Source: Escherichia coli O157:H7 (GTDB taxonomy: Bacteria > Pseudomonadota > Gammaproteobacteria > Enterobacterales > Enterobacteriaceae). Taken from it: a stretch of 64,000 bases of DNA. The position numbers were made by a program. Numbering within the stretch: position 1 is the first letter of the stretch; the number at the start of each line of letters is the position of its first letter. Location of the stretch: NCBI RefSeq assembly GCF_013167455.1, contig NZ_CP038328.1; one strand, written 5' to 3'. This document shows positions 12,001 to 15,000 of this stretch, piece by piece.

Positions 12001-15000
12001 AGACCTGCACGCAAGGGGCTTCCTCACAGTGATGACACACGACAGGGGCAGTGAGTGTTGACGTCTTCGCCAGGGCCAGGCGCGGGTGTTGCTGTAAACC
12101 TTGCGTTTTATGCACGTCCGAACAGGCAGCGAGACAGGTATTACATCCTGTACACCACAGTGGTTCGGCCACCACAAAGCGGTTCATGTCGGCTCCTTGA
12201 AAATGATATGAAACATTGCATTTCATAATGCATAAAGGATGTCAGTATGATTAATTTAATATATTCAATAAGTTATGAATTAACTGAATTCTGAACGGTA
12301 CAAAAATGATGGTCATTAACGTTCAGCAAAAAATGGATTCGACACCCGTGTCGCAGGGGAAAGTGAGAATGTGATCTTGATCACGATAAGTGAGGTGTGC
12401 TGACCGCAAGCGCAGCCAGCACGGAATGGAGCAAAGTAATCAGGCGTGTTCTTTCAGCCAGTTCAGCACAACGTCGTGGTGATTGCTGGTTTTGAAATCG
12501 TCAAAGACATGTTCGATTTTGCCATCAGCGTCAATCAGGAAGCTGATGCGATGAATACCATCGTAGGTTTTGCCCATGAAGGACTTTTCCCCCCAGACGC
12601 CGAATTGCTCGCACACCTGGTGGTCCTCATCAGACAGGAGCGTAAAGTTAAGCAGCTCTTTTTCCGCAAAACGGGAGAGTTTTTCGGGTTTATCGGTGCT
12701 GATACCCAGCACATCAACGCCCGCTTTTTTCAACTCATCCATGTTATCGCGTAAGCCGCAGGCCTGTACGGTACAGCCGGGGGTCATGGCTTTCGGGTAG
12801 AAATAAACCAGAACACGCTGTCCCTGGAAGTCGGTCAAATTAACTTGTTCTCCGTCTTGATCCGGCAAGCTAAATTTCGGTGCGATATCACCGGCTTTCA
12901 GTGGATTCATTACTTAACTCCATCCTGTTCATCATGTTGGGAATAATTGACGACGTTAATACTGCCTTGTGCATTGAGTTCTGTACATAGGGCTTTGAAC
13001 GCTTGCTCAATATTTGCTGCGTCCGCAGATGCGGGGCTGTGGGCAGTAATCTGAATATGCAACTGCGCAGCCCGCTCATTTTCAGCAGGTTGTGTGCGCG
13101 ACACCAGCTCCGCAATGTTCATATGATGCGCGTCGAAAAGTGCTGTGAAGCGTTCAATTAAATGCGGGGAGTCTGCCACATCGACCTGAACCCAGACAGA
13201 TGCTGGCATTGGCGGACGCGGACGCGCCGTCGTGCGCTTCATCACGATTAAAAGATCCAGTTCGGCACCTTTCAACGGTAACGTTGATTCAATCAGAGTA
13301 ATGGCATTCCATGAACCGGAAAGCAGCATGATAAACGTGAACTCTTCTCCCAGCATCGCCAGGCGACTGTCTTCAATATTACAGCCGCAACTACTGACAT
13401 GACGGGTGATGGTGTTCACAATTCCAGGGCGATCGGCACCCAACGCAGTGATCACCAGATAATGTTGCGATGACAGTGTCAAACTGGTTATTCCTTTAAG
13501 GGGTGAGTTGTTCTTAAGGAAAGCATAAAAAAAACATGCATACAACAATCAGAACGGTTCTGTCTGCTTGCTTTTAATGCCATACCAAACGTACCATTGA
13601 GACACTTGTTTGCACAGAGGATGGCCCATGTTCACGGGAAGTATTGTCGCGATTGTTACTCCGATGGATGAAAAAGGTAATGTCTGTCGGGCTAGCTTGA
13701 AAAAACTGATTGATTATCATGTCGCCAGCGGTACTTCGGCGATCGTTTCTGTTGGCACCACTGGCGAGTCCGCTACCTTAAATCATGACGAACATGCTGA
13801 TGTGGTGATGATGACGCTGGAGCTGGCTGACGGGCGCATTCCGGTGATTGCCGGGACCGGTGCTAACGCTACTGCGGAAGCCATTAGCCTGACGCAGCGC
13901 TTCAATGACAGTGGTATCGTCGGCTGCCTGACGGTAACCCCTTACTACAATCGTCCGTCGCAAGAAGGTTTGTATCAGCATTTCAAAGCCATCGCTGAGC
14001 ATACTGACCTGCCGCAAATTCTGTATAATGTGCCGTCCCGTACTGGCTGCGATCTGCTCCCGGAAACGGTGGGCCGTCTGGCGAAAGTAAAAAATATTAT
14101 CGGAATCAAAGAGGCAACAGGGAACTTAACGCGTGTAAACCAGATCAAAGAGCTGGTTTCAGATGATTTTGTTCTGCTGAGCGGCGATGATGCGAGCGCG
14201 CTGGACTTCATGCAATTAGGCGGTCATGGGGTTATTTCCGTTACGGCTAACGTCGCAGCGCGTGATATGGCCCAGATGTGCAAACTGGCAGCAGAAGGGC
14301 ATTTTGCCGAGGCACGCGTTATTAATCAGCGTCTGATGCCATTACACAACAAACTATTTGTCGAACCCAATCCAATCCCGGTGAAATGGGCATGTAAGGA
14401 ACTGGGTCTTGTGGCGACCGATACGCTGCGCCTGCCAATGACACCAATCACCGACAGTGGTCGTGAGACGGTCAGAGCGGCGCTTAAGCATGCCGGTTTG
14501 CTGTAAAGTTTAGGGAGATTTGATGGCTTACTCTGTTCATAAGTCGCGCCTGGCAACGGTTGCGGGTGTTTCGCTTGTTTTATTACTCGCTGCCTGTAGT
14601 TCTGACTCACGCTATAAGCGTCAGGTCAGTGGTGATGAAGCCTACCTGGAAGCGGCACCGCTTGCGGAGCTTCATGCCCCGGCTGGAATGATTTTGCCGG
14701 TGACCTCCGGTGATTATGCAATCCCGGTGACCAACGGTAGTGGTGCTGTCGGTAAGGCGCTGGACATTCGTCCACCAGCCCAGCCGCTGGCACTGGTTTC
14801 TGGCGCGCGTACCCAGTTCACGGGCGATACCGCTTCATTGCTGGTGGAAAATGGTCGTGGCAATACTCTGTGGCCGCAGGTGGTTAGCGTGCTGCAGGCG
14901 AAAAACTACACCATCACCCAACGTGATGATGCTGGTCAGACACTGACCACCGATTGGGTACAATGGAACCGTCTGGACGAAGACGAGCAGTATCGTGGTC

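What the first reader, a model, noticed from the sequence alone, without database searches (positions are those of the whole stretch)
12910..13482. Non-ATG initiation codons at gcvR (TTG) and narQ (GTG)
For gcvR the first in-frame ATG would add 22 N-terminal residues (MLYACFFYAFLKNNSPLKGITS) that look non-native, whereas TTG at ~13482 gives the conserved MTLSSQHYLV start. narQ (25928-27628) similarly begins at GTG (MIVKRPVSASL). Both are regulators, where weak initiation codons are a common way to keep expression low. gcvR also overlaps the bcp start by 1 nt (bcp ATG / gcvR TAA).
Basis: partly seen in the sequence, partly recalled or inferred. Interest (0 to 1): 0.15.

Follow-up and report, generated by a model that had tools for sequence, protein, structure and literature searches.

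The report
Known weak start codons: gcvR, narQ
Two E. coli regulatory genes, gcvR and narQ, do begin with the weak start codons TTG and GTG, but reference annotation and published experiments already say so, which makes the finding correct and ordinary.

Summary
The window is E. coli chromosome. Both genes lie on the minus strand. gcvR runs 13482 to 12910 and starts at TTG. narQ runs 27628 to 25928 and starts at GTG. Both coordinates match RefSeq. The gcvR TAA and bcp ATG share one base (TAATG).

One detail is wrong. The 22-residue upstream extension begins at TTG 13548, not ATG, and no in-frame ATG lies upstream.

Comparative evidence fixes both starts:
- gcvR has TTG at the aligned position in 58 of 58 Enterobacteriaceae loci and in 4 further Enterobacterales. 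None of 17 silent sites is invariant.
- Three-base periodicity of variation begins at the TTG, and in-frame stops or frame-breaking indels lie upstream.
- More distant relatives use GTG or ATG.
- narQ has GTG in 52 of 54 loci.

A competing GUG-UGA start-stop cuts reporter expression 7- to 8-fold (PMC9841429).

"Weak codon keeps expression low" is plausible and the codons look selected. The link to regulators is not supported locally: three of five non-ATG genes nearby are not regulators, and hyfR uses ATG.

Verdict: already known, low interest.

The parts
12910..13482 (-). gcvR coding sequence (190 aa, glycine cleavage system repressor with two ACT domains)
   Evidence: RefSeq CDS WP_000176187.1 maps exactly here. 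NCBIfam NF008612 scores 398 bits against a cut-off of 267 and aligns 1-189 of 189 positions. Pfam finds ACT_6 plus ACT.
13480..13482 (-). gcvR TTG initiation codon
   Evidence: TTG at the aligned position in 58/58 Enterobacteriaceae loci plus the window and in Dickeya, Erwinia, a Yersiniaceae member and Edwardsiella. No E. coli record matches an ATG or GTG variant of the 63-mer perfectly.
13491..13497 (-). gcvR Shine-Dalgarno sequence AAAGGAA (core AGGA, 9 nt before the TTG)
   Evidence: Read. (A)AGGAA lies 8 nt upstream of the TTG in 56 of 58 loci by the script; the two exceptions also carry it by eye.
13483..13548 (-). The 22-codon 'extension': non-coding 5' leader and promoter region, not part of the protein
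   Evidence: Starts at TTG, not ATG. No codon periodicity: column entropy 0.35/0.39/0.48 here against 0.24/0.05/1.04 downstream of the TTG. The conserved block sits at offsets of 44, 45, 46, 49 or 57 nt from the TTG, so indels break the frame. 22/58 loci have an in-frame stop within 12 codons upstream.
13517..13534 (-). Block TTTTTTTTATGCTTTCCT (17 of 18 columns invariant) in the gcvR-dapA intergenic region, preceded by conserved TTGTATGC (13545-13538). Probably core elements of the weak gcvR promoter.
   Evidence: Columns invariant in 41 sequences that share the window's offset. Similar blocks occur in Dickeya, Erwinia, a Yersiniaceae member and Edwardsiella. The promoter role is inferred. 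The consensus promoter scan found nothing on this strand.
12908..12912 (-). TAATG junction: gcvR stop TAA (12912-12910) and bcp start ATG (12910-12908) share one base
   Evidence: The same 1-nt overlap occurs in 40 of 57 Enterobacteriaceae loci.
12918..12921 (-). bcp Shine-Dalgarno GGAG, inside the end of gcvR, 7 nt before the bcp ATG
   Evidence: Read.
25928..27628 (-). narQ coding sequence (566 aa nitrate/nitrite sensor kinase)
   Evidence: RefSeq CDS ends at this base. NCBIfam NF008184 scores 925 bits against a cut-off of 553 and aligns from residue 1. PDB 5iji chains begin MIVKRPVSASL.
27625..27630 (-). narQ GUGUGA initiation site. The 3' GUG (27628-27626) is the narQ start. The 5' GUG (27630-27628) plus UGA (27627-25) form a one-codon start-stop in another frame.
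   Evidence: Sequence. Identical to K-12 from 57 nt upstream of the GTG to 42 nt downstream of its first base. Reporter data in PMC9841429. The 63-mer is identical in 5265 of 5426 E. coli records.
27638..27641 (-). narQ Shine-Dalgarno GGAG, 9 nt before the annotated GTG and 7 nt before the competing GTG
   Evidence: Listed as GGAG, DtoStart 16, 'predicted ambiguity: yes' in Table 3 of PMC9841429.
27641..27643 (-). Upstream in-frame GTG (it would add MEKTR); not a start
   Evidence: Its last base is the first G of the GGAG Shine-Dalgarno, and it follows ATTTTTT with no Shine-Dalgarno of its own. A GTG at this position occurs only in the four other Escherichia loci. Other genera have stops 1-13 codons upstream of the conserved GTG.

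Best explanation
Both genes start where the reference annotation says, at genuine near-cognate start codons.

gcvR. Translation starts at UUG 13482, positioned by an AAGGAA Shine-Dalgarno 8-9 nt upstream. The 66 nt upstream that read through as 'MLYACFF...' are promoter and leader, not protein. A weak constitutive promoter together with UUG sets a low, fixed level of GcvR. GcvR is an ACT-domain accessory protein that binds GcvA to repress gcvTHP and gcvB until glycine releases it. It works stoichiometrically against GcvA, so its dose should matter (inference). The bcp gene follows through a TAATG junction with its own GGAG, which allows translational coupling (inference).

narQ. Translation starts at the 3' GUG of GUGUGA. 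The GGAG Shine-Dalgarno places ribosomes so that the 5' GUG competes. Ribosomes that take the 5' GUG meet UGA at once and can re-initiate on the narQ GUG. The net effect is strong down-tuning of this very low-abundance sensor kinase. This is published reporter evidence for the identical sequence.

What is shown: the positions of the starts and their conservation above neutral expectation. What is inferred: that the benefit is low expression.
For: Annotation:
- RefSeq CDS ends coincide with both codons.
- Curated equivalog HMMs align from residue 1 of both proteins.

gcvR:
- TTG in 58/58 Enterobacteriaceae loci; 19/58 have no other possible upstream start, and the Shine-Dalgarno is conserved 8 nt upstream.
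- 0 of 17 amino-acid-invariant four-fold sites are nucleotide-invariant in the same sequences.
- Codon-position entropy switches from flat to 0.24/0.05/1.04 exactly at the TTG.
- TTG plus ACAGGAAG in four further Enterobacterales families. In Erwinia it is the only candidate start in the ORF.
- GTG in a 68 %-identity relative, apparently GTG in a 55 % one, and ATG in four 40-44 % ones.
- In PDB 1u8s (a Vibrio-type GcvR) the match to GcvR residue 6 begins at chain residue 4, so its N-terminus is equally short.
- PgcvR is described as a low-level constitutive promoter in PMC2615304.
- From memory, not readable here: Ghrist & Stauffer 1998 (J Bacteriol 180:1803) fixed the UUG start by N-terminal sequencing of a GcvR-LacZ fusion.

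narQ:
- GTG in 52/54 loci and A at +4 in 54/54.
- PMC9841429 found that both GUGs are used, that A4-to-G cuts expression about 5-fold, and that a single unambiguous GUG gives 7-8-fold more. It lists narQ protein abundance as 0.115 ppm.
- The window is identical to K-12 across the reporter segment.
Against: - The primary paper is not held, and the TetRP supplements do not mention either gene.
- The invariance of T1 in TTG could reflect another constraint on that base rather than selection for weak initiation.
- The 58 loci include many close Citrobacter and Enterobacter species, so there are fewer independent lineages.
- The E. coli population test would miss an ATG variant that also carries a second SNP in the 63-mer.
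- No measurement of GcvR level as a function of start codon was seen.
- GUGUGA itself is lineage-restricted (11/54 loci), so the start-stop mechanism cannot explain the family-wide GTG.
Confidence: 0.88

Rival explanations
1. gcvR really starts at the upstream TTG (13548 or 13545) and makes a 211-212 aa protein with a hydrophobic N-terminal extension.
For: The frame is open to 13548 in the window. Public databases hold such versions, for example a 212-aa Salmonella GcvR cluster with 810 members that begins MLYAGFFYGFLKITSP, and 201-210 aa versions in other genera.
Against: - No Shine-Dalgarno precedes 13548.
- 22/58 relatives have an in-frame stop within 12 codons of the conserved TTG, and Enterobacter species have it 8 codons upstream.
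- Frame-breaking indels and absence of codon periodicity upstream.
- E. albertii has four extra C that shift the frame.
- The 22 residues hit no Pfam family.
- The NCBIfam model and PDB 1u8s start at the short N-terminus.
- The TTGs lie in the conserved TTGTATGC block, which looks like a -35 element (inference).
Confidence: 0.03
2. gcvR starts at the first in-frame ATG, codon 43 (13356), giving a 148-aa protein.
For: This ATG is in frame and conserved at the same codon in all 58 loci. Naive ATG-only gene finding would choose it.
Against: - It would delete residues 7-42, the start of the first ACT domain (Pfam ACT_6 spans residues 7-82).
- Those codons show strong purifying selection with third-position wobble.
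- They are conserved in relatives down to 40 % identity and are present in the 1u8s crystal structure.
Confidence: 0.01
3. narQ starts at the upstream in-frame GTG 27643 (571 aa, MEKTRVIVKRP...).
For: The ORF is open to that codon in the window and in the four other Escherichia loci.
Against: - It has no Shine-Dalgarno upstream, and its last base is the first G of the GGAG that serves the downstream start.
- Outside Escherichia no GTG occupies that codon, and in-frame stops lie 1-13 codons upstream of the conserved GTG in many genera.
- The NCBIfam NarQ model aligns from residue 1 of the 566-aa form.
- The reporter with 20 nt of leader plus GUGUGA is active.
Confidence: 0.03
4. The starts are as annotated, but the non-ATG codons are neutral accidents with no role in setting expression. 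Any of ATG, GTG or TTG would do.
For: - About 17 % of E. coli genes use GTG or TTG.
- Selection on start codons is generally weak (PMC5622118).
- Three of the five non-ATG genes in the syntenic 50 kb are not regulators, and hyfR uses ATG.
- Distant GcvR relatives work with ATG.
Against: - A neutral three-state site should have drifted, yet gcvR is TTG in 62 of 62 Enterobacterales sampled and narQ is GTG in 52 of 54, while every comparable silent site varies.
- No E. coli record matches an ATG variant of either 63-mer perfectly.
- For narQ, reporter data show a 7-8-fold effect of the start context.
Confidence: 0.15

Closest known systems
E. coli K-12 gcvR (b2479), with the UUG start and weak constitutive promoter described by Ghrist & Stauffer, J Bacteriol 1998 (PMC107093; cited from memory and via the reference list)
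   Same: It is the same gene. The protein is the RefSeq entry WP_000176187.1 shared across E. coli strains. It has the same TTG, Shine-Dalgarno and divergent dapA / downstream bcp arrangement.
   Different: Nothing material. The window strain differs from some E. coli lineages only by one or two leader SNPs.
narQ GUGUGA ambiguous initiation site with A4-dependent start-stop and termination-reinitiation (PMC9841429, Nucleic Acids Res 2022)
   Same: The sequence is identical from 57 nt upstream of the GTG to 42 nt downstream of its first base: GGAG Shine-Dalgarno, overlapping GUGs, and A at +4 that creates UGA.
   Different: Nothing in the window. Added here: GUGUGA is limited to Escherichia and some Citrobacter (11/54 loci), whereas GTG and A at +4 are family-wide, and 11/54 loci carry TTGTGA instead.
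Classic weak-start regulatory genes of E. coli: lacI (GUG), cya (UUG), infC and pcnB (AUU). The first two are from general knowledge; infC and pcnB are named.
   Same: A near-cognate start codon on a low-abundance regulatory or dosage-sensitive protein.
   Different: infC's AUU is part of a demonstrated IF3 autoregulatory loop. No feedback through the start codon is known or suggested for gcvR or narQ.

Membership tests
GcvR, glycine cleavage system transcriptional repressor (NCBIfam NF008612 equivalog) | Full-length match above the curated cut-off, starting at residue 1 | tested here: met
   398.4 bits against a cut-off of 267; protein 1-189 aligned to profile 1-189 of 189
GcvR, glycine cleavage system transcriptional repressor (NCBIfam NF008612 equivalog) | Two tandem ACT domains | tested here: met
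   Pfam ACT_6 at residues 7-82 and ACT at 97-166. PDB homologue 1u8s matches at E = 3.7e-39.
GcvR, glycine cleavage system transcriptional repressor (NCBIfam NF008612 equivalog) | Conserved neighbourhood: divergent dapA upstream, bcp immediately downstream | tested here: met
   in E. coli. Both neighbours are present in 8 of the 10 more distant relatives fetched. One contig shows bcp but no dapA call, and one shows dapA with an unclassified downstream gene.
GcvR, glycine cleavage system transcriptional repressor (NCBIfam NF008612 equivalog) | Binds GcvA and glycine; represses gcvTHP and gcvB | not testable with these tools
   Literature only (refs 17-19; refs 40-41)
NarQ nitrate/nitrite sensor kinase (NCBIfam NF008184 equivalog) | Full-length match above the cut-off with sensor, HAMP, HisKA_3 and HATPase_c architecture | tested here: met
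   925.5 bits against a cut-off of 553, aligning from residue 1. Pfam PilJ-type sensor, HAMP, HisKA_3 and HATPase_c. Matches PDB 5iji from residue 1.
Genes with genuine non-AUG (UUG/GUG) initiation | A NUG codon at the 5' edge of the region that evolves as coding sequence | tested here: met
   Codon periodicity begins at the gcvR TTG. The aligned codon is TTG in 58/58 and GTG in 52/54 loci.
Genes with genuine non-AUG (UUG/GUG) initiation | Shine-Dalgarno sequence at functional spacing | tested here: met
   gcvR: AAGGAA or AGGAA 8 nt upstream in 56/58 loci. narQ: a purine-rich GGAG-like motif 8-12 nt upstream in nearly all loci.
Genes with genuine non-AUG (UUG/GUG) initiation | No in-frame AUG that could give the conserved protein | tested here: met
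   gcvR: no ATG between the stop at 13551 and the TTG; the next ATG is at codon 43. narQ: only GTG 27643 between the upstream stop and the start.
Genes with genuine non-AUG (UUG/GUG) initiation | Direct evidence of initiation (N-terminal sequence, initiation-site profiling, reporter) | not testable with these tools
   narQ: published luciferase reporters. gcvR: N-terminal sequencing of a fusion protein in a 1998 paper that could not be opened, cited from memory.
AUGUG/GUGUG ambiguous initiation sites with A4 start-stop (PMC9841429) | GUGUG pentamer with the annotated start at the 3' GUG | tested here: met
   GTGTG at 27630-27626
AUGUG/GUGUG ambiguous initiation sites with A4 start-stop (PMC9841429) | A at +4, so that the 5' GUG is followed at once by UGA | tested here: met
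   A at 27625. A at +4 in 54/54 relatives.
AUGUG/GUGUG ambiguous initiation sites with A4 start-stop (PMC9841429) | Shine-Dalgarno spacing that gives access to both start codons | tested here: met
   GGAG lies 7 and 9 nt upstream. The sequence is identical to the K-12 sequence, for which the paper gives DtoStart 14/16 and 'predicted ambiguity: yes'.
AUGUG/GUGUG ambiguous initiation sites with A4 start-stop (PMC9841429) | Measured initiation in both frames and dependence on A4 | not testable with these tools
   Published for the identical sequence

The most novel reading that the evidence does not exclude
The identity of the start codon, not merely its presence, is a selected expression set-point. 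gcvR has kept UUG in every Enterobacterales species sampled (62 of 62, across at least five families) while silent sites are saturated. Relatives at 55-68 % identity use GUG and those at 40-44 % use AUG. If GcvR dose relative to GcvA is what is being held, a chromosomal UUG-to-AUG swap should produce glycine-insensitive super-repression of gcvTHP and gcvB. For narQ, the family-wide GUG plus A at +4 would be the ancestral down-tuning, and the GUGUGA start-stop (perhaps also UUGUGA in 11 other species) a later, lineage-specific extra layer.
Probability: 0.55. Interest if true: 0.25.

Novelty: already known. Interest (0 to 1): 0.07.

Why it matters
There is little discovery value. Both start codons are in the reference annotation, the gcvR UUG start was determined experimentally in 1998, and the narQ start context was dissected in 2022.

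The work has two practical uses:
- It gives a clean comparative argument against the 201-212-residue GcvR versions that still circulate in public protein databases for Salmonella and other genera.
- It documents that a rare UUG start is held fixed across an entire bacterial order. That makes gcvR a convenient natural test case for selection on weak start codons.

Tried and rejected
- Primary gcvR papers (PMC107093, PMC177274): not held. The 1998 result is therefore cited from memory only.
- Full-text searches for gcvR together with UUG or 'start codon': nothing relevant found.
- Initiation-profiling data: the TetRP supplements do not mention gcvR or narQ, and the Ribo-RET preprint has no supplements held.
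- Consensus promoter and terminator scans: no sigma-70-like site on the gcvR strand upstream of gcvR and none upstream of narQ. This fits weak promoters but is uninformative.
- Rfam scan of the whole window: no family. No known RNA element explains the conserved intergenic block.
- Upstream TTG extension of gcvR, the internal ATG start, and the upstream GTG of narQ: considered and rejected (see rivals).
- My recollection that the main gcvR transcription start lies 27 nt upstream of the UUG fits a -35 at TTGTAT (13545-13540) but leaves a poor -10. I did not rely on that number.
- A statistical link between regulators and weak start codons cannot be tested on one window. The local count (2 of 5 non-ATG genes are regulators, and hyfR is ATG) gives no support.
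Full report
**Origin of the window and the observation**

A 1.1-kb stretch around the finding matches 5,425 of 5,426 complete E. coli genomes at 95-100 % identity. It carries bcp, gcvR and dapA. The narQ start region behaves the same way.

Both genes in the finding lie on the minus strand. Read on that strand, TTG at 13482-13480 is followed by ACA CTG TCA TCG CAA CAT TAT CTG GTG, which gives MTLSSQHYLV. The frame closes at TAA 12912-12910. The RefSeq gcvR CDS (WP_000176187.1, 573 nt) maps exactly to 12910-13482, and bcp maps to 12440-12910. The two genes therefore share one base in a TAATG junction.

For narQ, GTG at 27628-27626 gives MIVKRPVSASL. The RefSeq CDS ends at that base both in K-12 and in a strain identical to the window over the 501 bases compared around the narQ start.

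One detail is wrong. The 22-residue extension MLYACFFYAFLKNNSPLKGITS starts at TTG 13548, not at an ATG. The two ATGs nearby (13541, 13537) are out of frame, and TGA 13551-13549 closes the frame. The first in-frame ATG is codon 43, at 13356.

**Is gcvR's TTG the true start?**

I used dapE, which lies between the two genes, to fetch 80 syntenic loci from Enterobacteriaceae species genomes. I located gcvR in 58 of them and narQ in 54.

- The codon aligned with 13482 is TTG in 58 of 58 loci. An AAGGAA or AGGAA Shine-Dalgarno sits 8 nt upstream.
- In 22 loci an in-frame stop lies within 12 codons upstream. In 19 loci no alternative start codon exists in the open frame at all; Enterobacter species, for example, have the stop 8 codons upstream.
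- The variability pattern changes exactly at the TTG. Mean column entropy by codon position is 0.24/0.05/1.04 in the first 22 codons after the TTG and a flat 0.35/0.39/0.48 in the 66 nt before it.
- The distance from a conserved upstream block to the TTG is 44, 45, 46, 49 or 57 nt in different species, so indels there break the frame.
- E. albertii has four extra C in this leader.
- The curated NCBIfam GcvR model aligns positions 1-189 to residues 1-189. The first ACT domain begins at residue 7. In the solved Vibrio-type homologue 1u8s the match to GcvR residue 6 starts at chain residue 4, so its N-terminus is equally short. The 22-residue extension hits no Pfam family.

The internal ATG would remove half of the first ACT domain, which is conserved down to 40 % identity. 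Both alternative starts are therefore rejected.

**Is the TTG selected or accidental?**

- In the same 59 sequences, 17 four-fold-degenerate sites sit in amino-acid-invariant codons among the first 60 codons. None is nucleotide-invariant, yet the TTG is invariant.
- Outside the family, Dickeya, Erwinia, a Yersiniaceae member and Edwardsiella also have TTG preceded by ACAGGAAG. In Erwinia it is the only candidate start in the ORF.
- A relative at 68 % identity uses GTG. One at 55 % most likely uses GTG, although it was called with a long ATG extension. Four relatives at 40-44 % identity use ATG.
- Within E. coli the 63-mer centred on the TTG is identical in 4,116 of 5,426 records. Two sampled variants differ only in the leader. 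No record matches an ATG or GTG version perfectly.

A weak start codon on gcvR is thus an order-level trait of Enterobacterales held against drift. That fits, but does not prove, selection for low translation.

PgcvR is used elsewhere as a 'low-level constitutive promoter' (PMC2615304). From memory, Ghrist & Stauffer 1998 determined the UUG start by N-terminal sequencing of a GcvR-LacZ fusion. That paper is not in the library.

**narQ**

The aligned codon is GTG in 52 of 54 loci. The two exceptions have ATG one codon downstream. None of 10 comparable silent sites is invariant. The upstream in-frame GTG 27643 has no Shine-Dalgarno of its own, and its last base is the first G of the GGAG at 27641-27638. 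A GTG at that position occurs only in Escherichia, and many genera have a stop 1-13 codons upstream of the conserved GTG.

The start is the 3' GUG of GUGUGA (27630-27625), so a 5' GUG in another frame is followed at once by UGA. PMC9841429 studied exactly this site:
- Both GUGs initiate.
- Changing A4 to G cuts narQ-frame expression about 5-fold.
- A single unambiguous GUG gives 7-8-fold more.
- NarQ is listed at 0.115 ppm abundance.

The window is identical to K-12 from 57 nt upstream of the GTG to 42 nt downstream of its first base. The 63-mer is identical in 5,265 of 5,426 E. coli records, with no ATG variant. New here: GTGTGA occurs in only 11 of 54 loci (Escherichia and some Citrobacter), while A at +4 occurs in 54 of 54. 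Another 11 loci have TTGTGA.

**The interpretation**

The start sites are right. 'Weak codon to keep expression low' is reasonable: GUG and UUG initiate at 10-100 % of AUG, and AUG is generally favoured, most strongly in highly expressed genes. The conservation data and the narQ reporters support it.

The claim that this is typical of regulators is not supported locally. Of 45 annotated CDS in the syntenic 50 kb, 40 use ATG, 4 use GTG (eutA, eutQ, narQ, hyfG) and 1 uses TTG (gcvR). The regulator hyfR uses ATG. Two non-ATG genes in 64 kb is what the genome-wide 83/14/3 % predicts.

**The gcvR-bcp junction**

The TAATG overlap is present in 40 of 57 loci. bcp has its own GGAG 7 nt upstream, inside gcvR. 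This allows translational coupling, but that is inference only.

**Verdict**

The finding is a correct reading of two already annotated and already studied start codons. It contains one factual slip and misses one published feature. Novelty: already known. Interest: low.

The residual value has two parts. One is a comparative argument against the extended GcvR annotations (201-212 aa) still present in databases. The other is the observation that the rare UUG start is fixed across Enterobacterales.

Noticed in passing
window 13517-13545 (minus strand), gcvR-dapA intergenic region: TTTTTTTATGCTTTCCT (13533-13517) is nucleotide-invariant in the 41 sequences (window plus 40 loci) that share the window's spacing. 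Similar blocks (TTTTTTTATGTTTACC or TTTTTTTATGATTACC) are present in Dickeya, Erwinia, a Yersiniaceae member and Edwardsiella. A conserved TTGTATGC precedes it. The block is far more conserved than the rest of the leader. It is probably the core of the weak gcvR promoter, but a role for the divergent dapA promoter is not excluded. An evolution study reports a 1-bp deletion in the gcvR promoter in two endpoint strains (PMC7382830).
   Followed up: partly
proteins P0002, P0006, P0079, P0105, P0115, P0120: Public databases hold GcvR with inconsistent N-termini: 190 aa, but also 195, 200, 201, 212 and 252 aa. The DNA shows the conserved TTG inside each extended version whose DNA was fetched (P0105, P0115).
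   Followed up: partly
protein P0030: A 331-aa 'hypothetical protein [Astraeus odoratus]' (a fungus) is 89 % identical to GcvR and also carries Redoxin/AhpC-TSA domains. It is a gcvR-bcp fusion product. Most likely it reflects enterobacterial contamination of a fungal assembly, with the TAATG junction read through or mis-called.
   Followed up: no
L080 (CACSKA010000009.1) and L071: A contig titled 'Chryseobacterium sp. 18061' carries an Enterobacteriaceae dapE-gcvR region. Its gcvR start region differs at a single base from that of 'Citrobacter sp. 18056' from the same study. The assembly looks mislabelled or contaminated.
   Followed up: no
E. coli strain 81, NZ_CP088131.1 around 1391070-1391344: This genome matches only the aegA-proximal part of the narQ start region. 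The match ends within a few bases of the narQ start codon, and no narQ feature is annotated there. narQ appears to be deleted or interrupted exactly at its start in this strain.
   Followed up: no
L007 (E. albertii) versus window 13501-13504: The C4 run in the gcvR leader is C8 in E. albertii. This 4-nt insertion shifts the frame of the supposed N-terminal extension. Some E. coli lineages (ST95-32, NCTC11151) carry A-to-G at window 13497 (AAAGGAA becomes GAAGGAA), at the 5' edge of the Shine-Dalgarno region.
   Followed up: partly
narQ relatives, 11 of 54 loci: Eleven species have TTGTGA at the narQ start instead of GTGTGA. That is a possible UUG-UGA start-stop overlapping the GUG start, analogous to the published GUGUGA case. 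It has not been tested anywhere, as far as I could find.
   Followed up: no
window 4901 (-), 38356 (+), 46286 (+): The other annotated non-ATG starts in the syntenic 50 kb are hyfG, eutQ and eutA, all GTG. hyfG, eutQ and eutA overlap the end of the preceding gene in the annotation (by 11, 26 and 4 nt).
   Followed up: no
window 12187-12226 (-) and 13610-13628 (+): Mechanical ORFs run upstream of the annotated ATG starts of hyfA (13 extra codons from ATG 12226) and dapA (6 extra codons from TTG 13610). RefSeq uses ATG 12187 and ATG 13628.
   Followed up: no
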